Below, one piece after another: positions 16,215-33,004 of a stretch of DNA of 33,145 nucleotides. A program made the position numbers and the translations under genes. Numbering within the stretch: position 1 is the first letter of the stretch; each line of letters starts with the position of its first letter. The notes below the pieces were generated by a model. The model was not told where the DNA came from. It saw only the letters and a program-made list of their open reading frames with translations, and ran no database searches. The stretch lies in the IMG/VR virus record IMGVR_UViG_2879742664_000006, one strand, 5' to 3'. This DNA is from a virus. Its lineage: Duplodnaviria; Heunggongvirae; Uroviricota; Caudoviricetes.

Positions 16215-18200
16215 ATGAGTACCACAACACGAAAATTTAAAACCATTATCACCGATACGGGTGCAAAAAAATTAGCTCAGGTAGCCGCGCCAGATGGTAA
16301 GCCTGTCCGCCTGACTCATATGGCCGTGGGCGACGGTGGCGGCACGTTGCCCACACCAGACAGTAAGCAGACCCGTCTGGTGCATGAGGTGTGGCGACAT
16401 ACTGTTAATCGCGTCATCCTGGACGCAACACATCAGAACCGCATTATTGCGGAGCTGGTTATTCCTCCTGAAACGGGCGGATTCTGGATCCGGGAAATTG
16501 GTGTATTTGATGAGCACGGCGATTTAATCGCGGTGGGAAATACTGCCGAAAGTTACAAGCCAGCCGTTGCCGAAGGGTCCGGTCGTGCACAAACATTTCG
16601 CACCATTCTGACCGTATCCAGCACTGCCACCGTGGCGCTTACCGTGGACAACACCATGGTGATGGCCACAGTGGATTACGTGGATGACAAACTGAAAGAG
16701 CATGAACAGTCACGACGTCACCCGGACGCCTCGCTGACCGCAAAAGGCTTTGTTCAACTCAGTAGCGCCACTAACAGCGTGTCTGAAACGCAGGCTGCAA
16801 CGCCGAAAGCAGTAAAGGCCGCGTATGATCTTGCTAACGGTAAATATACTGCGCAGGATGCCAGCACGACGCGAAAAGGCCTTGTCCAGCTCAGTAGCGC
16901 CACCAACAGCACGTCTGAAACGCAGGCTGCAACGCCGAAAGCAGTAAAGGCCGCGTATGACCTTGCTAACGCAAAATATACCGCTCAGGACGCCACGACG
17001 GCACAAAAAGGGATAGTCCAGCTCAGTAGTGCCACCAACAGCACGTCTGAAACACTGGCCGCGACATCGAAAGCGGTTAAGGCGGTAATGGATGAAACGA
17101 ACAAGAAAGCGCCCTTAAACAGTCCTGCGCTGACCGGAACGCCAACAACGCCAGCTGCGCGACAGGGAACGAATAATACCCAAATCGCAAGCACGGCTTT
17201 CGTTATGGCTGCGATTGCCGCCCTTGTAGATTCGTCACCTGACGCACTGAATACGCTGAACGAGTTAGCGGCGGCGCTGGGAAACGCCCCGAATTTTGCG
17301 ACCACCATGACTAACGCGCTTGCGGGTAAGCAACCGAAAGATGCCACCCTGACGGCGCTGGCCGGGCTTGCTACTGCGGCAGACAGGTTTCCGTATTTTA
17401 CGGGGAATGATGTCGCCAGCCTGGCAACCCTGACAAAAGTCGGGCGGGATATTCTTGCGAAATCGACCGTTGCTGCCGTTATCGAATACCTCGGTTTACG
17501 AGAACTCGGCACAAGCGGGGAGAAAATACCGTTACTCAGTACAGCGAATACCTGGACCAATCGACAAACATTCAGCGGTGGCCTTTCTGGGGAACTGTCC
17601 GGCAATGCCGCTACTGCAACAAAGCTGAAAACAGCACGAAAAATTGCTGGAGTTGGTTTTGATGGTTCTAGCGATATTTCAATTAGTGCCAAAAATGTCA
17701 ATGCATTTGCACTCCGACAAACAGGTAATACTGTTAATGGTGATACATCCGTTGGATGGAATTGGGATAGTGGTGCATATAACGCCCTGATTGGTGGTGC
17801 ATCTGCATTAATTCTTCACTTTAATATAAATGCTGGTAGCTGTCCTGCCGTACAATTCCGTGTGAATTATAAAAATGGTGGCATTTCCTACAGGTCGGCT
17901 CGTGATGGTTATGGGGTTGAATTAGGTTGGTCAGATTTCTATACCACGACACGAAAACCTTCAGCGGGAGATGTTGGTGCATATACGCGGGCAGAATGTA
18001 ACTCAAGGTTTATTACAGGTATTCGCCTTGGCGGTCTGTCATCTGTTCAGACATGGAATGGTCCCGGCTGGTCTGACAGGTCAGGTTATGTCGTTACGGG
18101 TTCAGTTAACGGAAACCGTGATGAATTAATTGATACAACACAGGCAAGGCCAATTCAGTATTGCATTAATGGGACGTGGTATAACGCGGGGAGTATTTAA
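16215..18200 (+). CDS. H: Tail fibre protein (P2 gpH-like), current fusion of constant N-terminal part with variable C-terminal segment Sv
   Basis: 661 aa; three tandem 44-aa collar repeats (KGxVQLSSATNSxSETQAATPKAVKAAYDLANxKYTAQDA); conserved crossover motif ...IEYLGLRE... at the gix-like site; followed by an assembly chaperone gene. Confidence 0.9.
   Translation: MSTTTRKFKTIITDTGAKKLAQVAAPDGKPVRLTHMAVGDGGGTLPTPDSKQTRLVHEVWRHTVNRVILDATHQNRIIAELVIPPETGGFWIREIGVFDEHGDLIAVGNTAESYKPAVAEGSGRAQTFRTILTVSSTATVALTVDNTMVMATVDYVDDKLKEHEQSRRHPDASLTAKGFVQLSSATNSVSETQAATPKAVKAAYDLANGKYTAQDASTTRKGLVQLSSATNSTSETQAATPKAVKAAYDLANAKYTAQDATTAQKGIVQLSSATNSTSETLAATSKAVKAVMDETNKKAPLNSPALTGTPTTPAARQGTNNTQIASTAFVMAAIAALVDSSPDALNTLNELAAALGNAPNFATTMTNALAGKQPKDATLTALAGLATAADRFPYFTGNDVASLATLTKVGRDILAKSTVAAVIEYLGLRELGTSGEKIPLLSTANTWTNRQTFSGGLSGELSGNAATATKLKTARKIAGVGFDGSSDISISAKNVNAFALRQTGNTVNGDTSVGWNWDSGAYNALIGGASALILHFNINAGSCPAVQFRVNYKNGGISYRSARDGYGVELGWSDFYTTTRKPSAGDVGAYTRAECNSRFITGIRLGGLSSVQTWNGPGWSDRSGYVVTGSVNGNRDELIDTTQARPIQYCINGTWYNAGSI
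16743..17100. repeat. Tandem 132-bp repeats (about 2.7 copies) inside the tail fibre gene
   Basis: Near-identical DNA units beginning aaaggc(t/c)ttgt(t/c)ca(a/g)ctcagtagcgcc at 16743 and 16875, partial third from 17007. Confidence 0.7.
17479..17504. other. Left gix/cix-like crossover site of the invertible fibre segment (inside H)
   Basis: ttatcgaatacctcggtttacgagaa is the imperfect inverted complement of the site at 20158-20183 (shared core cctcggtttac); lies at the EYLGL codons. Confidence 0.7.
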
Positions 18201-18202
18201 CG

Positions 18203-18736
18203 ATGATGCACTTAAAAAACATTACTGCTGGCAACCCTAAAACAAAAGAGCAATACCAGCTAACAAAGCAATTTAACATCAAATGGCTTTATTCAGATGA
18301 TGGGAAAAACTGGTATGAGGAACAAAAGAATTTCCAGCCAGACACTTTGAAAATGGTCTATTACCATAACGGCGTTATTATTTGTATTGAAAAGGATGTT
18401 TCAGCAATTAATCCGGAAGGCGCAAGCGTCGTTGAATTACCTGATATTACAGCAAATCGCCGGGCTGATATTTCGGGGAAATGGTTGTTCAAAGATGGCG
18501 TAGTGATAAAGCGAACTTATACCGAGGAAGAGCAGAGGCAACAAGCGGAAAATGAAAAGCAAAGCCTGTTGCAACTTGTCAGGGATAAAACCCAGCTATG
18601 GGACTCACAGCTACGGCTGGGCATCATTTCCGACGAGAATAAACAAAAATTAACCGAGTGGATGCTCTATGCGCAGAAAGTCGAATCTACAGACACCTCC
18701 AGCCTGCCAGTAACGTTTCCCGAACAACCAGAATGA
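18203..18736 (+). CDS. Tail fibre assembly chaperone (Tfa; P2 gpG / Mu U-like)
   Basis: 177-aa [40 protein letters not shown]...; directly after the fibre gene; paralogous to the minus-strand copy at 18765-19293. Confidence 0.85.
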   Translation: MMHLKNITAGNPKTKEQYQLTKQFNIKWLYSDDGKNWYEEQKNFQPDTLKMVYYHNGVIICIEKDVSAINPEGASVVELPDITANRRADISGKWLFKDGVVIKRTYTEEEQRQQAENEKQSLLQLVRDKTQLWDSQLRLGIISDENKQKLTEWMLYAQKVESTDTSSLPVTFPEQPE

Positions 18737-18739
18737 GAG

Positions 18740-18766
18740 AAGGCCCGATATTGGGCCTTAATTTTT
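18740..18766. terminator. Bidirectional terminator hairpin between the two convergent chaperone genes
   Basis: aaggccc-gatatt-gggcctt perfect hairpin followed by aattttt. Confidence 0.5.
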
Positions 18767-19293
18767 ACTCAGGCTTTTGTGGCCATTCGGGATTTGCTGT
18801 ATCCACACGGCTGACCAGAACGCTGTAGCGTTCCCATGACTCCAGTCGTGTGCGTTCCTCATCCATCGCCATATTCAGCCTGACAGCGCGTTCCAGTGGC
18901 TGAATAACGCTTTCAGCTTCAGAAAGCAACGCGACCTTTTGTGATTCGGCCTGTTGTTGCTGTTCGTCTGCTGTATAAATCCGCTTAACCACAGTTCCGT
19001 CCTTAAACATCCACTTCCCTGAATCATCGGCACGACGATTGGCTGTTATATCTGGAATCTCAACGACACTAAAGCCTTCGGGATTAAGCGTTGGGGCATC
19101 TTTGGTTATGGCAACAATAATATTATTTTCGTCGTATACAATCTTTATGGTGTCGTCCTGAAAGTTATTTACTTCCTCATACCAGTTTTTACCGTCTTCG
19201 GACCATAACCAGATAACATCAAAATTCTTTGTTAGCTGATATTGTTCTTTTGTTTTTGGATTTCCGGACTTAATATTTTTTAATATGCTGCAT
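18765..19293 (-). pseudogene. Alternate tail fibre assembly chaperone (Tfa', Mu U'-like), frameshifted at codons 5-6 as sequenced
   Basis: ATG at 19293 gives MQHIKKY* then stop; the body ([37 protein letters not shown]...) is in the +1 frame; removing one A from the A6 run (plus-strand T6 at 19276-19281) gives [17 protein letters not shown]..., colinear with Tfa. Confidence 0.7.
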
Positions 19294-19296
19294 AAT

Positions 19297-20157
19297 TTAC
19301 ACCTGTGCGACGTTATACCATGTGCCATTGATGTATTTTTGTATTGGTCTGAAGATGGCTTCATCATCGCCATCTACTTCACCAATGATTCTTAATCCGG
19401 TAATTGCGTGTCCGGCTTTTTCATAACGACCACCACGCGCCATCAATTGAACAACACGCGTACCCAGGCGAACATCTTTTACATAGCGTGAATCAAAATT
19501 CCCCCAGTTGCTGGGCTGTATCTGACCGTTAACAGAAAATATTACCGAGTTATCTGTATTTCGCTGGCTATAGAAATGCCATCCTGCCTCATTGCCTAAC
19601 TCTGCAACTACTGGACGGGTTGAAGCACCCCATAAATTAAACGTTGCATTCTTTGTGGAGTTGTTGGAGCTGGATAGCGTGAATTTTTTACCATCCCCGG
19701 CCTGAATATTTTTAAAAGCAATAGCCACTCCATTCTGAAAGCGGAATACACGCTGACTATTAGCATAAACATCCAGAATACCGTCTCCATTCTGTTTAAA
19801 TCCGGTGTCATTATCACCAAGAACAATAGAGCTACCACCTAACGCATTCGTCGAACCAACTCCAAGACTGCCATTAATGACAGCATTAACAAGAATATTT
19901 AGTGCATCCCATTTCAGCGTCATCAGGTCTTTTGTTGTGGTGCTCTGGCGGCTTCTCCATTTGAAATATTCATTGCCGTTGTCGCCTGTTTCAAACCACA
20001 TGTATGAATCAGTGTCACCATCGGCATCATTTTTAAATCCAATCTTCGCCCAGTCAGTATTTCGAATCCAGGCAAGGATTGAGTCATTTTCAAAAGTAAG
20101 CCCACCGGACAAGGTATCGCCATTTTTTTGCACGGCGTTACCAGCCCTGTTTACCGT
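19297..20157 (-). CDS. Alternate tail fibre C-terminal segment (Sv'), no start of its own; expressed only after inversion
   Basis: Minus-strand frame open from the right gix site (...[23 protein letters not shown]...) to a stop at 19297; C-terminus ...[17 protein letters not shown] parallels the current H C-terminus ...RPIQYCINGTWYNAGSI. Confidence 0.75.
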
Positions 20158-20183
20158 TTCCTGTAAACCGAGGTTTTAAATAA
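20158..20183. other. Right gix/cix-like crossover site of the invertible segment
   Basis: ttcctgtaaaccgaggttttaaataa closely resembles the Mu gix consensus as I remember it; inverted relative to 17479-17504; 54 bp upstream of the invertase gene. Confidence 0.75.
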
Positions 20184-20237
20184 TGGCCGTTTCTGGCCTG
20201 CATGGCATGATTTGCGCTTTTGGACGGGAGATTCAGT

Positions 20238-20837
20238 GTGCTGATTGGCTATGTAAGGGTATCAACAAATGACCAGAATACAGACCTGCAACGAAACGCT
20301 CTTGTTTGTGCAGGATGTGAACAAATATTTGAAGATAAATTAAGCGGGACAAAGACAGACCGACCGGGATTAAAACGCGCTTTAAAGCGCCTTCAAAAAG
20401 GTGACACGCTGGTTGTCTGGAAACTGGATCGCCTCGGGCGAAGCATGAAACATCTGATTTCTCTCGTCGGGGAACTACGGGAGCGAGGGATTAATTTTCG
20501 CAGTCTGACCGACAGCATAGACACATCTTCTCCAATGGGGCGTTTTTTCTTCCACGTGATGGGTGCCCTGGCTGAAATGGAACGTGAATTAATTGTTGAA
20601 CGTACACTGGCCGGGCTGGCGGCAGCGCGCGCAAGGGGGCGCACAGGCGGACGTCGACCGAAGCTGACAAAAGAACAGCATGAGCAAATAGCAAGGCTAA
20701 TCAAAAACGGGCACGACAGAAAACAACTGGCAATAATTTACGGCATTGGCACATCGACGATTTATCGTTATCACCCTGTAGGCGATATACAGACTGAAGA
20801 AACAACCGGGCAGACTCAGGAAAATGAAAACCGCTAA
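20238..20837 (+). CDS. Serine DNA invertase of the Pin/Gin/Cin/Hin family
   Basis: MLIGYVRVSTNDQNTDLQRNALVCAGCEQIFEDKLSGTKTDRPGLKRALKRL... (catalytic Ser in VRVSTNDQ), C-terminal HTH; GTG start inferred at 20238 inside track ORF 20220..20837. Confidence 0.9.
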   Translation: MLIGYVRVSTNDQNTDLQRNALVCAGCEQIFEDKLSGTKTDRPGLKRALKRLQKGDTLVVWKLDRLGRSMKHLISLVGELRERGINFRSLTDSIDTSSPMGRFFFHVMGALAEMERELIVERTLAGLAAARARGRTGGRRPKLTKEQHEQIARLIKNGHDRKQLAIIYGIGTSTIYRYHPVGDIQTEETTGQTQENENR

Positions 20838-20858
20838 TCTGACCATTAGCGGTTTTTG
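20827..20858. terminator. Rho-independent terminator hairpin shared by invertase (+) and gpU (-)
   Basis: aaaaccgctaat-ctgacc-attagcggttttt; includes the invertase stop codon. Confidence 0.55.
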
Positions 20859-20865
20859 TGTTAAA

Positions 20866-21360
20866 TCAGAACAGCCCTTTAACTGAACTGGCCGCGCTGT
20901 TAAGAGATGATGTCACCTTATCTTTGAAGCCGGACAGCATATCACTGAACGATGAGGATTGCAGGCGCTCCCGCAAATCCTCATCACAGCGTTCAAGAGT
21001 CAGTGAAAATTCTATCTTTTTCGCCTTACCGTAGCGATCAAACTCGGAGCGGGTCGTATTCGTTTCAGTCAGGACATACATGCCGTAAATCTGCCCGACG
21101 CCATCAATCAAAGGCCAGGGTCGTCCTGTATACGCCTGCGTAGTCAGCAGCGACAGCGACACTTCGCCACCTGTAATTTCAGGATAAAGCACACCAGAAA
21201 GAACGATGCGATCATCACCTGCACCGATATACTGCCAGCTTGCTGAACGGTTAACGCGTTCATTTTTCACATGCCGCCAGCTTTTGTTTTGCTGTAACTG
21301 CTGATGCGGCAGCGTGCGCAGCTCAAAAACAAACATGCCGTAGATCATCATCATGGCCAT
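20866..21360 (-). CDS. U: P2 gpU-like tail protein
   Basis: 164-aa MAMMMIYGMFVFELRTLPHQQLQQNKSWRH...; immediately downstream of the tape measure gene on the minus strand. Confidence 0.85.
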   Translation of the reverse strand: MAMMMIYGMFVFELRTLPHQQLQQNKSWRHVKNERVNRSASWQYIGAGDDRIVLSGVLYPEITGGEVSLSLLTTQAYTGRPWPLIDGVGQIYGMYVLTETNTTRSEFDRYGKAKKIEFSLTLERCDEDLRERLQSSSFSDMLSGFKDKVTSSLNSAASSVKGLF

Positions 21361-21366
21361 GACTCC

Positions 21367-24174
21367 TCAATCTTTATCGTAAAAACAGCCACGCCCGGCA
21401 CGGGCGCGCCGTTCCATTTCTGCCCTGACCATTTCACCGACCAGTTTCGCCAGTTCGCGGGGATTCTGCGTAACAACGTTATGCAGATGAACATGAATTT
21501 CACCACCAAATCCGAAGGCAACAGGCTCCCGGTTACGGGAAGTTACAGGAACTGATGCCACTGGAGATCGTATAGCCTCCGCCACCGGGCGGGAGCTGGC
21601 CGCAACAACAGGGACCAGCGCCGGAGGCAGCGGAGCCGGAACCACGGGTGTGATATTAATTGCGGGGGCAGGCTTACTGACCTGCGCAATCTTCCGCTCC
21701 TGCCACTCCCCACGAACAGCAAGTGCTCGGGGCAGGTTTTTAAAGACAATATCGCCGGGGCCAATGCGTTTTTTCGTCTCCTCAACCAGCTTACCTGTGT
21801 TATCAGCAATTTTGCTGAGTCTGCGCAGCGTACCGGTATTGCTGTCTGTGAGCGGTTTATTGTCTTTGGGGTTATCACCTCCGGTGCCATTGCCATTTTC
21901 CACAGGCTTCGGCGGATTGATTTTCGCCAGATCCCCCTGAAGCAAGGCAACCTTGTCCTGAAGAATGGCCGCACGCTGTGCGTCTTCGATTTTCTTGCGC
22001 GCCCTTTCCGCTTCATCCGGAAGCACACCAAGCTTTTCAAGTATCCACGCCAGCGTATCCAGCAACATTTTTGCAGGTGTCAGAACAAGTTGTAACGCAC
22101 CGCCAAGAACGTTACCGAATATCTCGCCAGCACTGGTACATTTATCCAGAGTTTCCTTGCTGGACTCCATCGGTGACAGCAGCGATTTAAACCAGTTAAA
22201 CACCTGGCTGATCCCACTCCCGATTGCGTCAAAAACAGGACCAAACCGTTCAAAGGTTTCGCGCAACGGGGTCAGCCTTTCCATAATCCCGCTGAACACC
22301 CCGGCAAAAAATGCCCTGATGGGATCCCAGTATTTCCAGATAAGAACGGCAGCTCCGGCAAGCGCAGCCACGATAAGACCAACCGGACTGAACAACGCCC
22401 CGATAGCGCCTCCCAGTAAAGAAACGGAACCCGTCACCATTCCCCATAGTGCTGGCAGAACCCTGACAGCATTCATTGATCCGGTCAGGAGGGAAAAACC
22501 AAGACGCAGTTTTGCCAGCGGGCCAGCAAGCACACCAATAGCCAGCGACAACGAGCCAACCGTTGCAGTCATTGCCAGCAATGCACCGCCTGCAATCAGT
22601 AGCTGGCGCGTCAGTGCGGGATGGGCCTGCGCCAGCGCCGTCACCTTTGATACCACACGCGTGAGCCACTGCGTGACAGAACGCAGCGGACCGTCAATCA
22701 GATCTGCAATGCGGATGCGCAACCCTTCCCATGCACTGCTGAGTGATTTCAGATCGCCGTCAAGGTTGTTGGCCATAACCTTTGCCGTGCGTTCAGCCTC
22801 ACCGCGCGCGCCTTCAAGTTCTTTTCTCAGTTTGGGTAAGGAGCCGTCACCTGCCGCATCAACGAGGGCCATAAATGATGTGAAAGCCTCTTCTCCGGCA
22901 ATGTCCTTAAAGAACGATACCCGGTCAACTTCCCCGTATTTGCGGGTAGCTTTATAAAGGTCAGCCAGCACATCCTCCATCGGGCGCATTTTGCCCCCGG
23001 CATCCGAGACAGACACGCCAAGCTCTTTCAGCGCCTCTGCTGCCGCCTTTGGCGGTGATGCCAGACGAGCCAGGCTGGCACGCATTGCCGTACCAGCATC
23101 ACTCCCCCTGATACCCATATTCGCCAGCACGCCCGCCATCGCTGCGGCCTGCTCCAGAGATATTCCCAGCTTACCCGCCACCGGACCTGCATATTTCATG
23201 GTTTCACCCAGTGCGCGAAGGTCAGTGTTGGTACGGGTAAACGCTGCGGTGAGTGTGTCGCCGACCCGGTCCATCTGGTCAGCAGAAAGACCGAACTGCG
23301 TCAGAATATTTGAGCCAATATCCGCCGTCTCACCGAGGTCCATACCGCCAGCCGTTGCCATGCTCAGTACGCCAGGGAGCGCAGCCTGAATGGCCTGTGG
23401 TGTAAAGCCAGCCATTGCAAGAAATGCCTGTCCACTGGCGGCATCGCCTGCGGTGAACTGCGTTTCAGAGCCAAGTTTTAACGCCTGCTCACGCAGCGCC
23501 TTAAACTGCGGGCTGTTCTGGTCGATTCGCGTCAGTGCCTGAACGCGGGACATCTCTTTGCCGAACCCGATCGCAGGCTGCAAAAAACGCCCGGCAGCAT
23601 AGCCGCCCGCCGCTGCCGCACCAATTGCCAGCGCACCACCTGTTTTCAGTTTTCCCGCTGTTTCCTGCGCGCGCGAATACCGCTCACGCGCCCGTGTTAC
23701 ACGCGCAAGCGCCTGCCGTTCGCGTTCAAGCTGGTTGTTGTACTGTTCGGTGCGTCTGATGGCCTGCTGGATGGTGTTATCGCTGCCTGTCAGGGAAATG
23801 CCGTGGCGTTTCAGCTCTCCGCCAAGCTCCCGCATTTTCTGAATTTCCCGTGTGCGCGATTCATTCAGGCGTTCAAGCCGGGTGCTTAACTGCTGCATCA
23901 GCTTTTGTTGTTTTTCGCTGAGCACTGTACCCGTGCGTTGTAACTGATTAAGGGCGTTAAGCTGGCGTCGTGCTTTCACGATGCCAGCATCCGCTTTACT
24001 GACAGCGTCACGGGCGCGCTCAAATGATCGCGCCTGACGCTCGAGATTTTTGATCGCCCCCTGCGTTCGCTGGATGGAGTCACCAAACTGCCCCATCAGG
24101 CGGCGGGCGTTTTCGGCAGGCCGGGTCAGCCTGTCAACGGCGCTGAAAGCGACCCGGATATCAAGAGTCTTCAT
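21367..24174 (-). CDS. T: Tail tape measure protein (P2 gpT-like)
   Basis: ~935-aa ORF, coiled-coil N-terminal third, Gly/Ala-rich hydrophobic middle; start placed at the Met of MKTLDIRV (RBS ggga); track ORF extends to 24210. Confidence 0.9.
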   Translation of the reverse strand: MKTLDIRVAFSAVDRLTRPAENARRLMGQFGDSIQRTQGAIKNLERQARSFERARDAVSKADAGIVKARRQLNALNQLQRTGTVLSEKQQKLMQQLSTRLERLNESRTREIQKMRELGGELKRHGISLTGSDNTIQQAIRRTEQYNNQLERERQALARVTRARERYSRAQETAGKLKTGGALAIGAAAAGGYAAGRFLQPAIGFGKEMSRVQALTRIDQNSPQFKALREQALKLGSETQFTAGDAASGQAFLAMAGFTPQAIQAALPGVLSMATAGGMDLGETADIGSNILTQFGLSADQMDRVGDTLTAAFTRTNTDLRALGETMKYAGPVAGKLGISLEQAAAMAGVLANMGIRGSDAGTAMRASLARLASPPKAAAEALKELGVSVSDAGGKMRPMEDVLADLYKATRKYGEVDRVSFFKDIAGEEAFTSFMALVDAAGDGSLPKLRKELEGARGEAERTAKVMANNLDGDLKSLSSAWEGLRIRIADLIDGPLRSVTQWLTRVVSKVTALAQAHPALTRQLLIAGGALLAMTATVGSLSLAIGVLAGPLAKLRLGFSLLTGSMNAVRVLPALWGMVTGSVSLLGGAIGALFSPVGLIVAALAGAAVLIWKYWDPIRAFFAGVFSGIMERLTPLRETFERFGPVFDAIGSGISQVFNWFKSLLSPMESSKETLDKCTSAGEIFGNVLGGALQLVLTPAKMLLDTLAWILEKLGVLPDEAERARKKIEDAQRAAILQDKVALLQGDLAKINPPKPVENGNGTGGDNPKDNKPLTDSNTGTLRRLSKIADNTGKLVEETKKRIGPGDIVFKNLPRALAVRGEWQERKIAQVSKPAPAINITPVVPAPLPPALVPVVAASSRPVAEAIRSPVASVPVTSRNREPVAFGFGGEIHVHLHNVVTQNPRELAKLVGEMVRAEMERRARAGRGCFYDKD

Positions 24175-26606: not shown

Positions 26607-27716
26607 ATGACCGACACCACCATGCAATTGCTCAGTCAGGGCACGGCCCCCGTGAAAATGCCGGATTTTGATATTCTCTCGGAGGGTAAAACGCTGTCAG
26701 GCGTGGCGGAGCGCCTGATGAGCCTGTAACTGACCGACAACCGGGGATTTGAGGCGGACCAGCTCACCATCACGCTGGATGATGCGGATGGTCAGTTGCA
26801 GCTACCGCCACGGGGCGCGCGTCTGACGGTTCTCATTGGCTGGAAAGGGGAACCGCTGACAGAAAAAGGCACTTACATTGTTGATGAAATCGCTCACGAA
26901 GGACCGCCGGACAGGCTGACTGTTTCAGCCAGAAGCGCAGATTTTCGGGATGAATTTAACGTTAAACGTGAGGTGTCCTGGCATGATGTGACCGTTGAGC
27001 GTGTGGTATCCGCCATCACTCATCGGTACGGTCTGAAACCGCAAATCAGCGAAATGCTGATGGATATCGAAATCGACCACGCCGACCAGACCGAAGAAAG
27101 CGACATGTCCTTTCTTACGCGCATGGCGGAAATGCTGGGAGCAATCGCCACGGTAAAAAGCGGCAATCTGTTATTCATCATGCCAGGTGGTGGCGTGAAC
27201 GCACAGGGGCAGCCGTTGCCCTCGTTCGCCATTACACGCAGCAGCGGCGATCGCCATCAGTTCCGCATTGCTGACCGCGAGGCGTATACGGGGGTACGCG
27301 CCTACTGGCTTGATCTTAATTACGGGAAAAAGAAAAAAGTCAGCGTGAAACGCCGCAAACCGCCAAAACCCAAAAAGGAGAAAAGCAGCAGTCGGGAAGG
27401 CGACTATATGGAAGGTGCGGAAGGCAACGTGTTTGTGTTACGCAAGACTTATCAGAACGAGCAGGCAGCAAGACGCGCAGCGGCGGCAAAGTGGCAGCAG
27501 CTACAACGCGGAGCCGCATCATTCTCCATCACGCTGGCGCGTGGTCGTGCAGAACTCTATCCCGAAATGCATGGCACAGTGACAGGCTTTAAAAGCGAGA
27601 TTGATTATCAGGACTGGACTATTGCAAAAGCCGAGCACACCATTGATAACAGCGGCTTTACCACGCAGCTTGAACTTGAAGCAAAAATCCCGGAATGGAT
27701 AGCAGAAACAGAATAA
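26607..27716 (+). pseudogene. D: P2 gpD-like tail protein with an in-frame TAA stop at codon 41 (26727-26729)
   Basis: ATG 26607 with RBS agggaggg; track ORFs 26475..26729 and 26796..27716 are in the same frame, separated only by TAA; D-like sequence reads continuously across it (...GVAERLMSL*LTDNRGFEADQLTITLDDADGQLQLPPRGARLTVLIGWKGEPL...). Confidence 0.8.
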
Positions 27717-27964
27717 ATCTCTTAAAAATATTATTTTTGAGATGTGCTTCTACACTGACAGTAAGAACAAAAGATAATGTATCAGCCCACTAGATGTCAG
27801 AGGTTGGGGCATCAACCAGATGCTAACAATAATACGGATGTTTTTCCCACATGACAGAGGAAGTCAAGTATAATCTTCACAGTCCATCCCGTCCAAGGGA
27901 ATATGACTCAATAGTAAAAGTTCCAGTTTAGTTAGTAGACCCACACTTTATAGAAGAGTAATTC

Positions 27965-30900
27965 ATGATTGGACAATTTTTAAGTGCAACAGAGATTTTA
28001 GCAAAGAACTATGTTCGTAATAAAATGGTTAAAAATCCATTTTATTCGAATTTAAAATGGAATTTTATTGAAAAAAACATCATAAGATTAACATCCTCAC
28101 CGGTTAAATCAGTACTTTGCATATCAGCTTTTTCATTTGTACTACTTTATGTTGGATATTTAAACGAATTATTTATAAAAAATAATCTTTTACATTATTT
28201 CCCGTTTAGGCATTCATTAACCGAATGGCAAACAACCATTTTAAGTGGCCAATTGACAATTATTGGTATTGTATACCCCCTTGTTATAGGTTTAGTAAGT
28301 GTCTTATTCCAAAAAAAGGCAGATAGAAAAATAGCCCAAACTGCTTATCAGCGTTACTCAGGATTCATGCTTGCTGGACTCAGCGGGCTTTTCTTATCAG
28401 GATTTATACTTCTCAGTGTACTAATTAAAACTGTCTTTGGAAGTTATCTTTATGGTATAGCTTGTCTAATCAGCATATTATGGCTTTTGATAAACATAGT
28501 TCTTTCTATTTGGTTCTTTATCGTGAGTCTTGAAATTCTTGATGATGTAAAACGGCAAATAATTATAAAGCGATACATTGCCTTCGAAATAGTAATGCCC
28601 CATATTTGTAACAAAATATCAGCCAAGCTTAGGTTATACCCTATCTATCAAAAACATAACTATTCAAATTTAGAAATCACGCAAGCCGATTACAAAGGAG
28701 AATACATATCTGTGGCTAGCAGTTATTCTAAGGAAGATGAGTTAAGTTTATATCACCGTCCTTTTCAACTTACTCTTAATCTTATTAATTACCAACTAAA
28801 AAAGAAGAATCATTTTGCGTCATTTGTCATTGGTGATAATCGTACAAAAGAAACAGAATCCACGGGTAAGATACTTTTTAGCGTTAAAAATATCAAACCA
28901 GACAGCTTATTAATAAAAATACTTAAGCAATGTTTTTATAGGGCTCCGATTAAAGGAGGAGATTTTTCCGTAAGTCTTACAATGCAGGCTATAACAGCAG
29001 ATACGTATATGTATCTGCGGGATTCTGATCTCATTAGTTTTGACAATGCTATCTCTGCATTAATTAATAACTTTAATAATCTCTGCGATTTGTATTTTTT
29101 TCAAGATGATAATACCAACAATAACTTCTTACTGATCACTACAGAATTATTTGAACGGAGTTTTCAATATGAGTTTTCAGATGAAGTTTATAAAATATCA
29201 AATAATTCCATGGATAAAATTAATCTTTCTGAAAGATTTTTTGAATTATGTCTTTGGAGCGGAGTGCGTATTATCAATAATAGAAAACATCTTATCAGCA
29301 ATGAACTTTGTATCTATATGGGAATTACTCGTTCACAATGGTCAATATTAACAGAATGGTTCCGAAACAACCAATCACTCTTAAATGCCTCGCTTCGTTC
29401 ACGTTATAATCGTATATTAAGAACCTATATCACTGTTTGGGAGCAATATCAAGAAAGCATAAACTTTCGTTTCTGCAATACAGAGAATTCAGATTTATTT
29501 GAATTATTTTGCAAAACGCAACTACAAGAACTTCCATCGATGATTATTGATGCAACACAGACTCGCGATCCTTCTACTATTGATACAGCCGTCGATCTTA
29601 TTAACCGATGGCAGCACTCAATGAATATTGACAGCCATTCGGTAGAAAAATACAGTTACAAAGGCCAGCTTTTTAACCCGGGTTTTTTCATATCCAAAAA
29701 ACTAAACTTCAATTCAGACAGAGAGTGGTTCAATATTGCCATCATAAATGCGTTGACTGACATGCGTATATGCACATGTCTTTATCTGACATCAAGAATC
29801 AATACTTCTGACAAACTAATGACACATTACATTAAACTTATTTTAGAGGGTAAACTTATTGACCAAACCGGTGGATATGAAACTCCCACTGAAGAAATTG
29901 ATAATGCAAGCCAACTAATCAAGATATTAATTAGAATCTGCCTGTGGACATGGTCTGAAAATATGGAGCACAATGGGTGGATGAATAGTTTAGCAAGGCG
30001 TTTACGTGACTATGATAAAACAGACATGGTGATGGGCAGAGTTTACAGTAATGTTTTTGACTGTGGATTTATTGATATGGAACAATCATGGGTTCAGCTA
30101 TTATTAATTTTTTCTAACAAGAACGATAGCGTATCAAAAGAAATAAAAGAAGCAATAGAAAACAACTATATAACATATCGTGAGAAGCAACGACTCATTG
30201 GAGTATTATCAAAAATTTGTAACTCCATCGAATACACTAAAATCAAGCTGACTTTAACATTGGACGATCTCCAAACAAAAAAAGAAAACTTAAGAAAGTT
30301 GCTTCAAGAGCATATTAACATGCTAAAGAAAGATCTTGATATGAGACTTCAGGATGCTGCCATAGATGTACATCGACTAGATAGCACTGCACGTAAAACA
30401 TCAGAACATCTTCGTAAACGCATCAAGAAAACGCTCCCTCTTTCACTTTTCAAATCTATTGATTTTAAGCAGGCTAGCGATTGTTTCACAAAACATAAGA
30501 TATCTATTAAGATAGATAAAGAACCGTATGCCGAAGGAATAGAATCCATCCCTTATATCAATGAAGGTGATATTCAAGCAGACTTAATTCTCAAGGACAT
30601 CCAGAGAATAATACTTTCAAATTTATTTAGCACTGGCTGTTCGCAACATACCGTAATAGAAGATTTCAATATGTTGATTGATCACATAAAATCATCTGCT
30701 GACTTGGCTGGCAAACTGGTTCTTGTGATGAGTAAAGAGATCTTTCAGCAATATAATCGTATGCTTTTCGATAATCCCAACCTCAGAGAACTAATGAGAA
30801 AAAATGATGATGGCTCTATGAACATAACTACTGAATCCGGTACCCGTAAGGTTTACTTCTTACCATTTGTTAATCAACCATTTTCTCTTGTGGTAAAGGA

Positions 30901-31084
30901 TAACTACTTCACTAAATTAATTATTAGAGAATATGATAATAATAAGTTAGTAAATGTCACTTCAGAGAATATCAAAAGTGACTCAGATAAATTCAAGCTA
31001 ACTCTTAACTATGAGTTGAATATAGTATTTGAAGGAAACGCTGATTTAAAAATAGCTCACTCGCAAAGAGTGACATCAGAATAA
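27965..31084 (+). CDS. Large membrane-anchored protein of unknown function (1039 aa), AT-rich cargo gene
   Basis: Single uninterrupted ORF, visibly AT-rich (about 17 G+C in the first 60 nt) against GC-rich phage genes; N-terminal hydrophobic helices (residues ~50-190), then ~850 aa with no recognisable motif; possible -10 box TATAAT at 27869-27874. Confidence 0.8.
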   Translation: MIGQFLSATEILAKNYVRNKMVKNPFYSNLKWNFIEKNIIRLTSSPVKSVLCISAFSFVLLYVGYLNELFIKNNLLHYFPFRHSLTEWQTTILSGQLTIIGIVYPLVIGLVSVLFQKKADRKIAQTAYQRYSGFMLAGLSGLFLSGFILLSVLIKTVFGSYLYGIACLISILWLLINIVLSIWFFIVSLEILDDVKRQIIIKRYIAFEIVMPHICNKISAKLRLYPIYQKHNYSNLEITQADYKGEYISVASSYSKEDELSLYHRPFQLTLNLINYQLKKKNHFASFVIGDNRTKETESTGKILFSVKNIKPDSLLIKILKQCFYRAPIKGGDFSVSLTMQAITADTYMYLRDSDLISFDNAISALINNFNNLCDLYFFQDDNTNNNFLLITTELFERSFQYEFSDEVYKISNNSMDKINLSERFFELCLWSGVRIINNRKHLISNELCIYMGITRSQWSILTEWFRNNQSLLNASLRSRYNRILRTYITVWEQYQESINFRFCNTENSDLFELFCKTQLQELPSMIIDATQTRDPSTIDTAVDLINRWQHSMNIDSHSVEKYSYKGQLFNPGFFISKKLNFNSDREWFNIAIINALTDMRICTCLYLTSRINTSDKLMTHYIKLILEGKLIDQTGGYETPTEEIDNASQLIKILIRICLWTWSENMEHNGWMNSLARRLRDYDKTDMVMGRVYSNVFDCGFIDMEQSWVQLLLIFSNKNDSVSKEIKEAIENNYITYREKQRLIGVLSKICNSIEYTKIKLTLTLDDLQTKKENLRKLLQEHINMLKKDLDMRLQDAAIDVHRLDSTARKTSEHLRKRIKKTLPLSLFKSIDFKQASDCFTKHKISIKIDKEPYAEGIESIPYINEGDIQADLILKDIQRIILSNLFSTGCSQHTVIEDFNMLIDHIKSSADLAGKLVLVMSKEIFQQYNRMLFDNPNLRELMRKNDDGSMNITTESGTRKVYFLPFVNQPFSLVVKDNYFTKLIIREYDNNKLVNVTSENIKSDSDKFKLTLNYELNIVFEGNADLKIAHSQRVTSE

Positions 31085-31219
31085 TATCTTTGACGGCGCT
31101 CCTTAGAGTGCCGTTCGTTTATTAACTAATGCTAAAAATCATTATATAGAGAAAGTCATGTTTAAATCTTAGAGAATACAACCTAGAATAGTGTAAGCAC
31201 TACAATAAGAGAGGTCGCT

Positions 31220-31415
31220 ATGTTCCGTTGTCCGCTTTGTGGCGCATCTGCCCGTATCCGCACCAGTCGTCCGGAAAATGATTCAAACACCGTGAGACAA
31301 AAGTATTATCAGTGTAACAATCTAGAATGCGGCGTATGTTTCTCAACACTGGAAGCCTTCCACAAATTCACTTCAAAGCACGCCTCCCCCATTCACTCAT
31401 CAGAGGGCATCCCGT
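31220..31415 (+). pseudogene. ogr: ogr-like zinc-finger late-gene activator, 3' end split off by IS2 (remaining codons at 32746-32823)
   Basis: MFRCPLCGASARIRTSRPENDSNTVRQKYYQCNNLECGVCF... (CxxC...CxxxxC); the IS2 terminal repeat begins at 31416 inside the frame, which resumes after the IS2 left end as ...PWHELPTSHRGNNQMSLPLPQN*. Confidence 0.8.
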
Positions 31416-31426
31416 TGGATTTGCCC

Positions 31427-32331
31427 CTATATTTCCAGACATCTGTTATCACTTAACCCATTACAAGCCCGCTGCCGCAGATATTCCCGTGGCGAGCGAT
31501 AACCCAGCGCACTATGCGGATGCCATTCGTTATAATGCTCGAACGCCTCTGCAAGGTTCTTTGCTGCCGTTAACCCGTCTGGTTTGGGCATGATACTGAT
31601 GTAGTCACGCTTTATCGTTTTCACGAAGCTCTCTGCTATTCCGTTACTCTCCGGACTCCGCACCGCCGTGTTCTTCGGTTCAAGTCCCAACATCCGGGCG
31701 AACTGGCGTGTTTCATTAGCCCGGTAGCATGAACCATTATCCGTCAGCCACTCCACTGGAGACGACGGAAGATCGTTGCCGAAGCGGCGTTCCACCGCTC
31801 CCAGCATGACGTCCTGTACTGTTTCACTGTTGAAGCCGCCGGTAGTCACCGCCCAGTGCAGTGCCTCACGATCACAGCAGTCCAGCGCGAACGTGACACG
31901 CAGTCTCTCTCCGTTATCACAGCAGAACTCGAACCCGTCAGAGCACCATCGCTGATTGCTTTCTTTCACGGCCACTCTGCCTGTATGTGCCCGTTTCGAT
32001 GGCGGTACAGCAGGTTTTCGTCAAGCAACAGCGCATTCTGGCGCATGATCCGGTAAACACGTTTGGCATTGATCGCAGGCATACCATCAAGTTCTGCCTG
32101 TCTGCGAAGCAGCGCCCATACCCGACGATAACCATACGTGGGCAGCTCTCCGATAACATGGTGTATACGGAGAAGCACATCCGTATCATCAGTGTGACGA
32201 CTGCGGCGGCCATCCATCCAGTCATCGGTTCGTCTGAGAATGACGTGCAACTGCGCACGCGACACCCGGAGACAACGGCTGACTAAGCTTACTCCCCATC
32301 CCCGGGCAATAAGGGCGCGTGCGCTATCCAC
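31427..32331 (-). pseudogene. insD: IS2 transposase OrfB (InsD) with an internal 1-bp frameshift near 32019-32025
   Basis: Split into track ORFs 31966..32331 ([12 protein letters not shown]...[28 protein letters not shown]) and 31427..31975 ([17 protein letters not shown]...); the shifted frame reads [24 protein letters not shown], so one base is missing around cttga(a)cgaaaacc. Confidence 0.8.
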
Positions 32332-32654
32332 TTTTTTGCCCGTCCATATTCAACGGCTTCTTTGAGGAGTTCATTTTCCATCGTTTTCTTGCCGAGCAGG
32401 CGCTGGAGTTCTTTAATCTGCTTCATGGCGGCAGCAAGTTCAGAGGCAGGAACAACCTGTTCTCCGGCGGCCACAGCAGTAAGACTTCCTTCCTGGTATT
32501 GCTTACGCCAGAGAAATAACTGGCTGGCTGCTACACCATGTTGCCGGGCAACGAGGGAGACCGTCATCCCCGGTTCAAAGCTCTGCTGAACAATTGCGAT
32601 CTTTTCCTGTGTGGTACGCCGTCTGCGTTTCTCCGGCCCTAAGACATCAATCAT
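32289..32654 (-). CDS. insC: IS2 transposase OrfA (InsC)
   Basis: [56 protein letters not shown]...; track ORF starts 15 codons upstream at 32699. Confidence 0.85.
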
Positions 32655-33004
32655 CTGTACTCCAATGACTAGTCTAAAAACTAGTATTAAGACTATCACT
32701 TATTTAAGTGATACTGGTTGTCTGGAGATTCAGGGGGCCAGTCTACCGTGGCATGAACTGCCAACTTCACACAGAGGAAACAATCAGATGAGTTTGCCCT
32801 TACCTCAGAATTAACGAGCAGAATTGCCGGAGTAACAAAAAAGCGATAGATTACGCGCGGGTGCCTTTCGGCTGATGGTCGGAGGGAATACCTGAAGGCC
32901 AGATGTGGAAAGGCCCCGGAAAACATTTTTGTTTAACCGAGGCCCTAACCGTCTACCCTAAGCAAGTGATAGGTTAGCGCCTCCCCGAAAAAGGAGCAAG
33001 CGCT

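What the first reader, a model, noticed from the sequence alone, without database searches (positions are those of the whole stretch)
27717..31219. AT-rich 3.5-kb cargo island between tail gene D and ogr encoding a 1039-aa membrane-anchored protein of unknown function
A single 3.1-kb ORF (27965..31084) with its own AT-rich upstream region sits between the last tail gene D and the late activator ogr, which are adjacent in P2. Its base composition is visibly foreign (by eye ~30% G+C versus GC-rich phage genes). The product has an N-terminal bundle of hydrophobic helices (VLCISAFSFVLLYVGYL, LTIIGIVYPLVIGLVSVLF, FMLAGLSGLFLSGFILLSVLI, GIACLISILWLLINIVLSIWFFIVSL) and an ~850-aa soluble region with no motif I recognise (no Walker A, no obvious nuclease, protease or kinase signature). 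Large single-gene prophage morons of this architecture are frequently abortive-infection or other anti-phage effectors, or host-interaction factors. This is the strongest candidate in the window for an undescribed system.
Basis: partly seen in the sequence, partly recalled or inferred. Interest (0 to 1): 0.85.

Follow-up and report, generated by a model that had tools for sequence, protein, structure and literature searches.

The report
Membrane protein carrying a capsid-fold domain
A foreign, AT-rich gene inserted between two normally adjacent genes of a P2-like prophage encodes a 1039-residue inner-membrane protein from a large, unnamed family whose tail end is folded like a virus capsid protein; its genomic company suggests, without experimental proof, that it is an undescribed anti-phage defence gene.

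Summary
A 3.5-kb island (33% G+C, against 53.5% in the rest of the window) sits between D and ogr, which are 81 bp apart in P2. It carries one intact ORF (27965-31084, 1039 aa).

The protein matches nothing in Pfam, NCBIfam, PADLOC or PDB sequences. The PGAP name 'MFS transporter' is unsupported. It belongs to a fixed-architecture family of about 500 clusters at 50% identity, mostly in Gammaproteobacteria.

TM2-TM4 is the most conserved part (64% identity between clades, 17-24% elsewhere). The capsid-fold domain is the least conserved.

No partner gene is conserved. Homologs sit in four type I R-M operons between hsdS and hsdR, beside CBASS, TIR and OLD-like genes and toxin-antitoxin pairs, and on plasmids, ICEs and P4-like elements.

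Best reading: a single-gene defence protein with a conserved membrane effector and a variable capsid-fold sensor. Defence role about 0.65-0.7; the specific mechanism about 0.3-0.35. Nothing was tested experimentally.

The parts
27717..27964 (+). AT-rich 248-nt upstream intergenic region of the island; presumed own promoter (perfect TATAAT at 27869-27874 with a weak -35; promoter-like site 27749-27778)
   Evidence: Sequence read. The promoter scan gives consensus matches only. The region is 99-100% conserved together with the gene in 9 other copies, while the D end drops to 95%. Promoter activity is inferred, not shown.
27965..31084 (+). Single intact ORF, 1039 aa, founding member (for this report) of an unnamed 4TM / helical-repeat / HK97-fold family
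   Evidence: ORF. Homologs (499 clusters at 50% identity with E<=1e-3, nearly all 1030-1150 aa). No family match. The exact sequence is on 183 contigs, named 'MFS transporter [Shigella]' or 'Uncharacterized protein' A0A6N3QRI7_SHIFL.
27965..28165 (+). Residues 1-67: basic cytoplasmic N-terminus (8 K/R in residues 1-48) and poorly conserved TM1
   Evidence: Hydropathy and charge count, model helices, conservation (TM1 20% identity between clades).
28217..28534 (+). Residues 85-190: TM2-TM4, the most conserved module. Motifs are QxTIxGxVYPLVIG (TM2), YSGFMFAGLSGL (TM3) and WFxxNxxLTxWF (TM4). P105, W173 and N177 are invariant. Proposed membrane effector.
   Evidence: 64% identity between the window protein and the 1069-aa clades, against 17-24% for all other regions. 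Invariant columns. Retained in all divergent members inspected. The effector role is inferred.
28661..28969 (+). Residues 233-335: small alpha/beta domain of unknown affinity, following a long juxtamembrane helix (191-232)
   Evidence: Secondary structure of the model. No fold assignment was obtained.
28970..30406 (+). Residues 336-814: all-alpha helical-repeat (solenoid-like) region with conserved W492/E493, D544/W549, N595/D599, R657 and R692/Y694
30407..31081 (+). Residues 815-1039: HK97-fold (capsid/encapsulin-like) domain, the least conserved part of the protein. Proposed sensor or oligomerisation domain.
31092..31125 (+). Terminator-like hairpin (10-bp stem, 6 G-C pairs) with a T-rich tail, 8 nt after the stop codon
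   Evidence: This is a consensus match only.
31161..31189 (+). Promoter-like site (TTTAAA-17-TAGAAT) 31 nt upstream of ogr, at the position corresponding to the P2 ogr promoter; it marks the right-hand edge of the island
   Evidence: The P2 ogr -10 lies 34 nt before its ATG.
26608..27716 (+). Left flank: tail gene D, inactivated here by a premature TAA at 26727-26729
   Evidence: Alignment with relative L001 (TCA at that codon). ORFs.
31220..31456 (+). Right flank: ogr, whose last ~21 codons are replaced because an IS3-family (IS2-like) element begins at about 31416
   Evidence: Similarity to all relatives ends at window 31415. The transposase ORFs lie at 31427-32699 on the - strand.

Best explanation
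The island carries a self-contained, single-gene anti-phage (or more broadly anti-mobile-element) defence determinant. The protein sits in the inner membrane through four TM helices, with both termini and about 850 residues in the cytoplasm.

The conserved TM2-TM4 bundle, with its invariant Pro, Trp and Asn, is the effector. When activated it makes the membrane leaky or depolarised, which stops the infection at the cost of the cell (abortive infection).

The fast-evolving cytoplasmic part is the sensor. It consists of the helical repeat and the C-terminal HK97-fold domain. The capsid-fold domain recognises, or is recognised by, components of an invading phage's head-assembly pathway (major capsid protein, scaffold, protease, portal or decoration protein). 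It may also template a capsomer-like pentamer or hexamer that brings 20-24 TM helices together.

Shown here: the island, the intact ORF, the family, the 4TM topology prediction, the HK97 fold, the conservation gradient, the absence of a conserved partner gene, and the defence-rich contexts.

Inferred: the defence function, the effector role of the TM module, the sensor role of the capsid fold, oligomerisation, and cell suicide.
For: 1. Mobile hotspot cargo.
- It is inserted where P2 has 81 bp.
- Other P2-like prophages carry other cargo at this site.
- The same island occurs in only 5 of 5426 E. coli genomes and 8 IMG/VR contigs.
- Its G+C is lower than its flanks in most loci examined.

2. 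Guilt by association in independent lineages.
- Four loci have the order hsdM-hsdS-[X]-hsdR: L014, L016 and L021 and L049. This is the position occupied by the abortive-infection gene prrC (PMC3874165).
- On pIP1206 the gene lies next to a CBASS cyclase with its 4TM effector, PDC-S06, VapBC and DUF3800.
- A Serratia island reads DUF3800/PDC-M04A - HNH - [X] - unknown gene - TIR.
- Other neighbours are an OLD/AriA-like ATPase on a P4-like element, RES/Xre, CcdAB, MazE/PIN, HEPN-RES and Mrr.

3. No partner gene is conserved across 23 loci, so the gene is a stand-alone unit.

4. The conservation pattern is that of a conserved effector with a variable sensor. TM2-4 is 64% identical between clades, 17-24% elsewhere, and lowest in the HK97 domain.

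5. The HK97 fold is robust.

6. Copies are often disrupted: 5 to 6 of 18 genome loci are split or truncated. That fits a costly or toxic gene.

7. There are precedents for each step. Lit, PifA and CapRel sense major capsid proteins, and RexB is an ion-channel effector (PMC10884400).
Against: - There is no experimental evidence of any kind.
- No homology to any of 5027 PADLOC models or to Pfam or NCBIfam. The defence assignment therefore rests entirely on context.
- Some homologs are lone insertions between housekeeping genes with no defence neighbour.
- Context was examined in about 30 loci chosen by convenience. It was not scored statistically against a background.
- The TM module was not found fused to other domains, and no alternative effectors replace it. 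The modularity typical of many defence families is therefore absent.
- The HK97 domain shows 5-12% identity to every capsid protein and no preference for any phage lineage. Nothing links it to a particular target.
- The oligomeric state and pore formation are pure inference.
- The AT-rich gene may be H-NS-silenced in its host (established knowledge of enteric AT-rich DNA; not tested).
Confidence: 0.35

Rival explanations
1. Capsomer-templated channel with sensing elsewhere. The HK97-fold domain is only a self-assembly scaffold, forming pentamers or hexamers as capsid proteins do. It holds the 4-TM modules in a ring to form a large pore. The trigger is sensed by the helical-repeat region or by membrane perturbation during phage DNA entry, not by the capsid fold. 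The outcome is still abortive infection or defence.
For: HK97-fold proteins characteristically form pentamers and hexamers (established knowledge; the matched structures are all capsid or encapsulin shells). The N-terminus of HK97-fold proteins faces the shell interior, so one face of a capsomer-like ring could face the membrane (inference). Helical repeats are common sensor domains, and this one carries several near-invariant polar residues. The TM module is highly conserved.
Against: A pure scaffold would be expected to be conserved, yet this is the least conserved domain (17% between clades). No multimer model could be computed here.
Confidence: 0.2
2. Assembly interference without suicide. 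The capsid-fold domain co-assembles with, or caps, the invading phage's capsid protein. This poisons procapsid assembly or tethers it to the membrane, so no infectious progeny form. It would act like the satellite protein Ccm (an HK97-fold capsid-protein homolog that redirects helper capsid assembly) or the prophage protein Tab (which blocks tail assembly).
Against: This reading does not explain why the TM bundle, rather than the capsid-fold domain, is under the strongest constraint. Capsid proteins are made in hundreds of copies per virion, so stoichiometric poisoning is demanding (the argument is made in PMC10884400). There is no detectable sequence similarity to the resident P2-like capsid gene or any other window ORF. 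A prophage carrying such a gene would need self-immunity.
Confidence: 0.12
3. Entry block or superinfection exclusion. The inner-membrane protein interferes with phage genome injection or with conjugative DNA entry at the membrane, as prophage Sie-type proteins do. The cytoplasmic domains bind ejected phage proteins.
For: Predicted inner-membrane location. The gene is carried by prophages and by many conjugative plasmids (218 of 379 plasmid records), where exclusion functions are common. Membrane-bound defences acting at injection are known (title and abstract of PMC13190303, listed).
Against: The periplasmic loops are very short (about 17-29 and 9 residues). Almost all the mass is cytoplasmic, which is unlike typical Sie proteins. 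Embedding in R-M operons is more typical of abortive-infection back-ups.
Confidence: 0.1
4. Not a defence gene. It could be a membrane-associated, capsid-derived structural or transport device serving the host or the mobile element, for example an encapsulin-like assembly docked at the membrane, or a transporter as the PGAP name 'MFS transporter' implies.
For: Family 3 encapsulins with a 4-5-TM extension annotated 'MFS' exist in Mesorhizobium (PMC8346489). Several homologs lie between housekeeping genes.
Against: There are only 4 TM helices and no MFS or other transporter family match at E<=1. No cargo enzyme or biosynthetic cluster is conserved next to it. A sporadic, horizontally moving, often pseudogenised distribution on mobile elements and in R-M operons is not what a housekeeping device shows.
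Confidence: 0.1

Closest known systems
Lambda RexAB, and more generally membrane-acting abortive-infection systems triggered by phage structural proteins (F-plasmid PifA, Lit, CapRel)
   Same: Carried by a prophage or plasmid. A cytoplasmic sensor is coupled to a membrane effector; RexB is described as an ion channel (PMC10884400). Several of these systems are triggered by the major capsid protein (same paper). These are the systems the window protein most plausibly works like.
   Different: No sequence relationship: no Pfam, PADLOC or NCBIfam match. Here sensor and effector are one 1039-aa polypeptide, and the putative sensor itself has a capsid fold. None of these systems is known to me to contain an HK97-fold domain (from memory, plus three literature searches that found nothing).
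PrrC, the abortive-infection anticodon nuclease embedded in the EcoprrI type IC R-M operon
   Same: Four distant homologs occupy an equivalent embedded position between hsdS and hsdR (PMC3874165). This suggests a second-line defence coupled to type I restriction.
   Different: The protein is unrelated: no nuclease or ATPase domain, and it is membrane-embedded. The window copy and most homologs are not in R-M operons.
HK97-fold major capsid proteins and encapsulins, including SaPIbov5 Ccm and the Mesorhizobium Family 3 encapsulins with a TM extension
   Different: Identity is 5-12% and there is no sequence-family match. The domain is the C-terminal fifth of a large membrane protein. The TM helices are N-terminal and separated from it by about 620 residues. 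No portal, protease, scaffold, cargo enzyme or biosynthetic cluster is associated.
Kiwa (KwaA 4-TM protein plus KwaB) and the CBASS/Pycsar 4TM effectors
   Same: These are defence systems that use a four-helix membrane protein (PMC11785009 abstract; PADLOC '4TM' effector models hit the pIP1206 neighbour).
   Different: None of those models hits this protein. There is no partner gene and no cyclase. The TM motifs of this family were not found elsewhere.
Known P2-like prophage hotspots (old/tin, Z/fun, and the third 'tail protein-CI' hotspot)
   Same: A small variable locus between conserved phage genes, carrying exchangeable accessory or defence cargo (PMC9122126; PMC9519451; 10.1101/2024.10.15.618418).
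   Different: The published functional screens concentrated on the gpA-gpQ and Z/fun loci. This cargo gene was not found in the texts read, nor under four RefSeq accessions of family members in the searchable library or the DefensePredictor supplements.

Membership tests
MFS transporter (the name given by PGAP/RefSeq) | Twelve (sometimes 14) TM helices in two six-helix bundles | tested here: not met
   Only four TM helices, all within residues 47-190. The remaining ~850 residues are soluble.
MFS transporter (the name given by PGAP/RefSeq) | Match to an MFS sequence family (e.g. Pfam MFS_1, Sugar_tr) | tested here: not met
   0 Pfam and 0 NCBIfam families at E<=1. Eight divergent members also gave none.
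HK97-fold capsid / encapsulin structural superfamily | HK97 fold by structure comparison | tested here: met
HK97-fold capsid / encapsulin structural superfamily | Sequence-family membership (Phage_capsid, Linocin_M18 and related profiles; similarity to solved capsid chains) | tested here: not met
   No Pfam or PHROG capsid family. PDB sequence profile searches with the whole protein and with the domain found nothing relevant. No similarity to any prophage ORF in the window.
HK97-fold capsid / encapsulin structural superfamily | Genomic association with a head module (portal, protease, scaffold, terminase) or an encapsulin cargo enzyme | tested here: not met
   No neighbour is conserved across 23 loci. 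Contexts are plasmids, ICEs, R-M operons and housekeeping genes.
HK97-fold capsid / encapsulin structural superfamily | Self-assembly into capsomers or closed shells | not testable with these tools
   No multimer prediction or experiment was available.
Known anti-phage defence systems (PADLOC-DB v2.0.0, including Kiwa, CBASS/Pycsar TM effectors, PD-T4/PD-lambda and PDC candidates) | Match to any model of a known or candidate defence protein | tested here: not met
   0 families for the window protein at E<=1 and 0 for three divergent homologs at E<=0.01. The library dates from 2023, so later systems are not covered. The newly named P4 systems read do not fit.
RexAB-type or PifA-type membrane abortive infection | Homology to RexA/RexB or PifA | tested here: not met
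   No Pfam, NCBIfam or PADLOC match of any kind. That these libraries contain Rex and Pif models is from memory.
RexAB-type or PifA-type membrane abortive infection | Phage-triggered loss of membrane potential with death of the infected cell and protection of the population | not testable with these tools
   Requires infection assays at low and high multiplicity and membrane-potential dyes.
R-M-embedded abortive-infection genes (PrrC type) | Gene located inside a type I R-M operon between hsdS and hsdR | tested here: inconclusive
   Met for four distant homologs: L014, L016 and L021 and L049. Not met for the window copy or for most other loci.
R-M-embedded abortive-infection genes (PrrC type) | Anticodon-nuclease or ABC-ATPase-like domains | tested here: not met
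   No such domain by sequence or in the model.
P2-like prophage hotspot cargo | Insertion between two conserved phage genes that are adjacent in the reference phage, with different cargo in different prophages | tested here: met
   D and ogr are 81 bp apart in P2. The site holds a 3.5-kb island here and PIN, DUF3800 or other genes in other E. coli. The hotspot is noted in 10.1101/2024.10.15.618418.

The most novel reading that the evidence does not exclude
A viral capsid protein has been domesticated as an immune receptor. The HK97-fold domain acts as a capsomer mimic: the invading phage's own head-assembly machinery (capsid protein, scaffold, protease or portal) engages it. That engagement gates a capsomer-templated ring of conserved 4-TM modules into a lethal pore. 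This would be a new class of 'capsid-mimicry' defence, widespread on prophages, satellites, plasmids and inside R-M operons of Gammaproteobacteria, and absent from all current defence catalogues.
Probability: 0.25. Interest if true: 0.9.

Novelty: new variant of a known kind. Interest (0 to 1): 0.78.

Why it matters
If the gene defends against phages, it adds a family of about 500 sequence clusters to the bacterial immune repertoire. The family is currently invisible to Pfam, NCBIfam and PADLOC and is mislabelled 'MFS transporter' in RefSeq. It is common on clinically relevant IncF and other plasmids of E. coli, Klebsiella, Enterobacter and Salmonella, and on Shigella prophages, where it could affect phage therapy and plasmid ecology.

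The conceptual interest is the capsid fold. Hosts and mobile elements are known to recruit viral parts, such as encapsulins, gene transfer agents, tailocins and satellite capsid-redirecting proteins. I found no report of a capsid-fold domain fused to a membrane effector in a defence context. It would give a directly testable model for how cells might detect or sabotage capsid assembly, which is the most conserved process of tailed phages.

Even if the defence reading is wrong, a conserved 4-TM module coupled to a capsid fold is a new protein architecture that needs an explanation.

Tried and rejected
- Sequence families. Pfam, NCBIfam, PADLOC and PHROGs on the window protein and on divergent homologs gave nothing. 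The weak hits (phrog_25965, Dynactin, McrBC, FliT, PGG) are all far below their cut-offs and were rejected as noise.
- PDB sequence profiles. Searches with the whole protein and with the C-terminal domain gave nothing relevant.
- Phage records. tblastn against 50,697 phage records found no match.
- 'MFS transporter' annotation. Rejected (see the membership test).
- Conserved partner gene. All-against-all clustering of neighbours over 23 loci found only the type I R-M genes in a subset. The two small divergent genes upstream of the 1069-aa plasmid clade are clade-specific and were not pursued.
- TM module in other architectures. A search with the module alone returned only fragments. It did not even re-list the full-length family, so the negative result is weak. 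Distant relatives whose profile match began near residue 330 were inspected for alternative N-termini, and all but one keep the 4-TM module. The exception, P0263 at 914 aa, shows no N-terminal TM helix and was not examined further.
- Structured RNAs and boundary repeats. There was no Rfam match at E<=0.1 and only short chance repeats.
- Literature. I searched for RefSeq accessions of family members, the DefensePredictor supplements, HK97/capsid-like plus defence terms, and the newly named P4 systems. No description of this family was found. These searches cover only the held library.
- Very distant members. Neighbours of a distant metagenomic member (L053) gave no Pfam hits, and the contig holding P0201 was too short to be informative.
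- Failed calls. A first genome scan with the most divergent alignment failed for lack of conserved peptides.


Full report
**1. The observation**

The window contains a P2-like prophage. Between the stop codon of tail gene D (27716) and the ATG of ogr (31220) lies a 3503-nt stretch holding one long ORF, 27965..31084 on the + strand, 1039 aa. Its G+C is 0.33, with 0.30 at third codon positions, against 0.535 for the rest of the window.

In reference phage P2, D ends at 23954 and ogr starts at 24036. Those 81 bp contain only the ogr promoter, so the insertion is real.

The ORF is followed 8 nt later by a terminator-like hairpin (31092-31115). A promoter-like site (31161-31189) lies where the P2 ogr promoter would be. 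The 248-nt upstream region is AT-rich and has a perfect TATAAT at 27869-27874 but no good -35, so an own promoter is plausible but not shown. No other ORF of 40 aa or more lies in the two intergenic stretches. There is no Rfam match and no meaningful boundary repeat.

**2. State of the prophage**

In this window D carries a premature TAA (26727-26729) where a 99%-identical relative has TCA. An IS3-family (IS2-like) element replaces the last ~21 codons of ogr from about 31416. The cargo ORF, in contrast, is intact.

Its exact sequence occurs on 183 contigs, mostly Shigella, under the names 'MFS transporter' or 'Uncharacterized protein'.

**3. Distribution of the island**

The whole D-[X]-ogr arrangement occurs in only 5 of 5426 complete E. 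coli genomes and in 8 IMG/VR contigs, always at the same site with the same intergenic sequences. It is absent from 50,697 deposited phage genomes.

Other E. coli P2-like prophages carry different genes between D and ogr, such as PIN-domain proteins, DUF3800 or pairs of hypothetical genes. [quoted passage not shown] The well-studied hotspots are gpA-gpQ and Z/fun (PMC9122126; PMC9519451). The site is therefore a known kind of variable locus. What needs explaining is the cargo.

**4. The protein family**

No family in Pfam, NCBIfam or PADLOC matches at E<=1, and PHROGs gives one noise hit. PDB sequence profiles give nothing.

Homologs are nevertheless numerous.
- One clade is 50-71% identical, in Erwinia and Pantoea.
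- A large clade of 1069-aa proteins is 26-28% identical, on Enterobacterales plasmids and islands. It was found in 379 plasmid records, 218 of them conjugative.
- An exhaustive profile search finds 499 clusters at 50% identity with E<=1e-3, nearly all 1030-1150 aa and aligned end to end.

A species-level genome scan finds members in Enterobacterales, Vibrio, Pseudoalteromonas, Shewanella, Psychromonas, Alteromonas, Psychrobacter and a Desulforhopalus. Eight divergent members also lack any Pfam domain. The architecture is fixed: of 22 distant members inspected, all but one (P0263, 914 aa) keep the N-terminal TM helices and the YP(L/I)V(I/V) motif of TM2.

**5. Architecture from structure prediction**

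The AlphaFold2 model built on a 33-sequence alignment has mean pLDDT 81 and pTM 0.66. It shows the following parts.
- A basic N-terminus.
- Four long TM helices (46-66, 85-116, 134-158, 160-190) that agree with the hydropathy scan. The positive-inside rule puts both termini in the cytoplasm.
- A long juxtamembrane helix (191-232).
- A small alpha/beta domain (about 233-335).
- An all-helical region (about 336-814).
- An alpha/beta C-terminus.

The fold assignment is therefore clean. Sequence identity is 5-12% and no sequence method sees the relationship. The domain has no similarity to any ORF of the resident prophage, so it is not a recent copy of the phage's own capsid gene.

**6. Conservation gradient**

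Between the window protein and the 1069-aa clades, TM2-TM4 (residues 85-190) is 64% identical. Every other region is 17-24% identical, and the HK97 domain is lowest at 17%. In the 55-sequence alignment the invariant or near-invariant residues are Q96, P105, G138, S140, W173, N177 and F184 in the membrane, plus a few polar residues in the helical region.

The membrane module is thus the constrained, presumably catalytic or pore-forming, part. It is not a mere anchor. The capsid-fold end evolves fastest. This is the pattern usually seen for a conserved effector joined to a sensor engaged in an arms race (inference).

**7. Genomic company**

All-against-all comparison of neighbours over 23 loci found no generally conserved partner, so the gene is a stand-alone unit.

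The exception is informative. In L014 (Aliikangiella), L016 and L021 (Psychromonas), and in the IMG/VR contig L049, the gene lies between hsdS and hsdR of a type I R-M operon. That is the place occupied by the abortive-infection gene prrC in EcoprrI (PMC3874165).

Elsewhere the neighbours are as follows.
- On pIP1206: a CBASS cyclase with its 4TM effector, PDC-S06, VapBC and DUF3800.
- On ColV/ColBM-type IncF plasmids: RES/Xre and an AAA_15/21 ATPase.
- On other elements: CcdAB.
- In a Serratia chromosomal island between phn and nrdD: DUF3800 (PDC-M04A), HNH and TIR.
- HEPN-RES and Mrr.
- On P4-like elements: an OLD/AriA-like ATPase, FRG, HNH and DUF3800.
- An ICE.

Some marine copies are lone, lower-G+C insertions between housekeeping genes. 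Five or six of 18 genome copies are split or truncated.

**8. Interpretation**

The hotspot location, the mobility, the repeated association with defence and toxin-antitoxin genes in unrelated lineages, the embedding in R-M operons, the frequent decay and the effector/sensor conservation pattern together make an anti-phage or anti-mobile-element role the best-supported reading. I put it at 0.65-0.7.

For mechanism, I favour a single-polypeptide sensor-effector. The cytoplasmic helical repeat and capsid-fold domain would detect a phage component. The obvious candidates are the proteins that naturally bind HK97-fold subunits during head assembly. Detection would switch the conserved 4-TM module into a membrane-permeabilising state. 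That is analogous in logic to RexAB, PifA, Lit and CapRel, several of which respond to major capsid proteins (PMC10884400). This specific chain is inference, at about 0.3-0.35.

The rivals are set out separately with their tests:
- the capsid fold is only a pentamer/hexamer scaffold for a pore;
- the protein poisons or tethers capsid assembly, like Ccm or Tab;
- it blocks DNA entry;
- it has a non-defence role.

**9. Comparison with the known**

The protein is not an MFS transporter: it has 4 TM helices and no family match. It is not a member of any defence family in PADLOC v2.0.0, of Rex, Pif or Kiwa, or of the capsid and encapsulin sequence families. It shares only the fold with the latter.

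The nearest architectural precedent is a set of Mesorhizobium Family 3 encapsulins with a C-terminal 4-5-TM 'MFS' extension (PMC8346489). Those have the opposite domain order, a recognisable Phage_capsid domain and a biosynthetic context.

Three literature searches found no defence protein with an HK97-fold domain. Accession searches found nothing. The newly named P4 hotspot systems do not match. These negatives are limited to the held library and to a 2023 PADLOC release.

**10. Verdict**

I rate the finding as a new variant of a known kind: a mobile-element hotspot cargo with single-gene, membrane-acting defence logic, built from components not previously described together.

There is roughly a one-in-four chance that it represents a genuinely new principle, with a domesticated capsid fold acting as immune sensor or pore template. 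Interest 0.78.

Noticed in passing
window 26608-27716 (stop at 26727-26729): Tail gene D of the prophage has a premature TAA where a 99%-identical relative (L001) has TCA. A 306-aa remnant ORF follows, so the prophage is probably tail-defective.
   Followed up: partly
window ~31416-32750: An IS3-family (IS2-like) element, with orfA at 32289-32699 and orfB at 31427-32331 on the - strand, is inserted in the 3' end of ogr and replaces its last ~21 codons. Similarity to all relatives stops at 31415. Together with the D nonsense codon and the Shigella-only exact matches, this points to a decaying prophage in an IS-rich Shigella genome.
   Followed up: partly
window 17400-21000: A second low-G+C stretch (0.39-0.49) corresponds to tail fibre genes, two tail-fibre assembly genes and a recombinase (invertase). 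This is the ordinary variable tail-fibre segment at the Z/fun position. The recombinase ORF (20220-20837) resembles a gene next to a family member in Pantoea L006, which is probably coincidental.
   Followed up: partly
L003 9383-10516; L028 12139-13272; L031 15408-16208; L035-L037 3716-4486; row H20: A DUF3800 gene (PADLOC candidate PDC-M04A in the Serratia copy) lies within a few kb of family members in at least four unrelated contexts. It is also an alternative cargo at the same D/ogr site in other E. coli. It is not a strict partner, but the recurrence is notable.
   Followed up: no
L002 316-1163; L023-L030 6765-7612; L039 5719-6647: In the 1069-aa clade, two small overlapping genes (about 196-224 aa and 81-85 aa, no Pfam hit) are divergently transcribed just upstream of the gene, both on IncF plasmids and on a Kosakonia ICE. 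They could be a clade-specific regulator or toxin-antitoxin pair.
   Followed up: no
L001 10172-10312: In relatives with an intact prophage end, a hok/gef toxin gene follows ogr before the chromosomal ihfA-pheT junction. In the window this position is occupied by the IS element.
   Followed up: no
L015, L017, L018, L020, L021, L022 (match regions from 8001): Five or six of 18 species-level genome copies of the family are split by frameshifts or stops, or are truncated. The Psychrobacter copy has G+C 0.28 in a 0.52 background between purL and ampD.
   Followed up: partly
L049 11183-14529: In the IMG/VR contig with the R-M-embedded homolog, hsdR is itself split into two ORFs (368 and 754 aa). 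The restriction subunit may be inactive while the embedded gene is intact.
   Followed up: no
RefSeq/GenBank annotation of the family (e.g. WP_264716223.1; cluster): The name 'MFS transporter' has propagated to hundreds of Shigella, E. coli, Pantoea and Erwinia entries with no support from any family model. One plasmid homolog is even called 'chromate transporter' (H26).
   Followed up: yes
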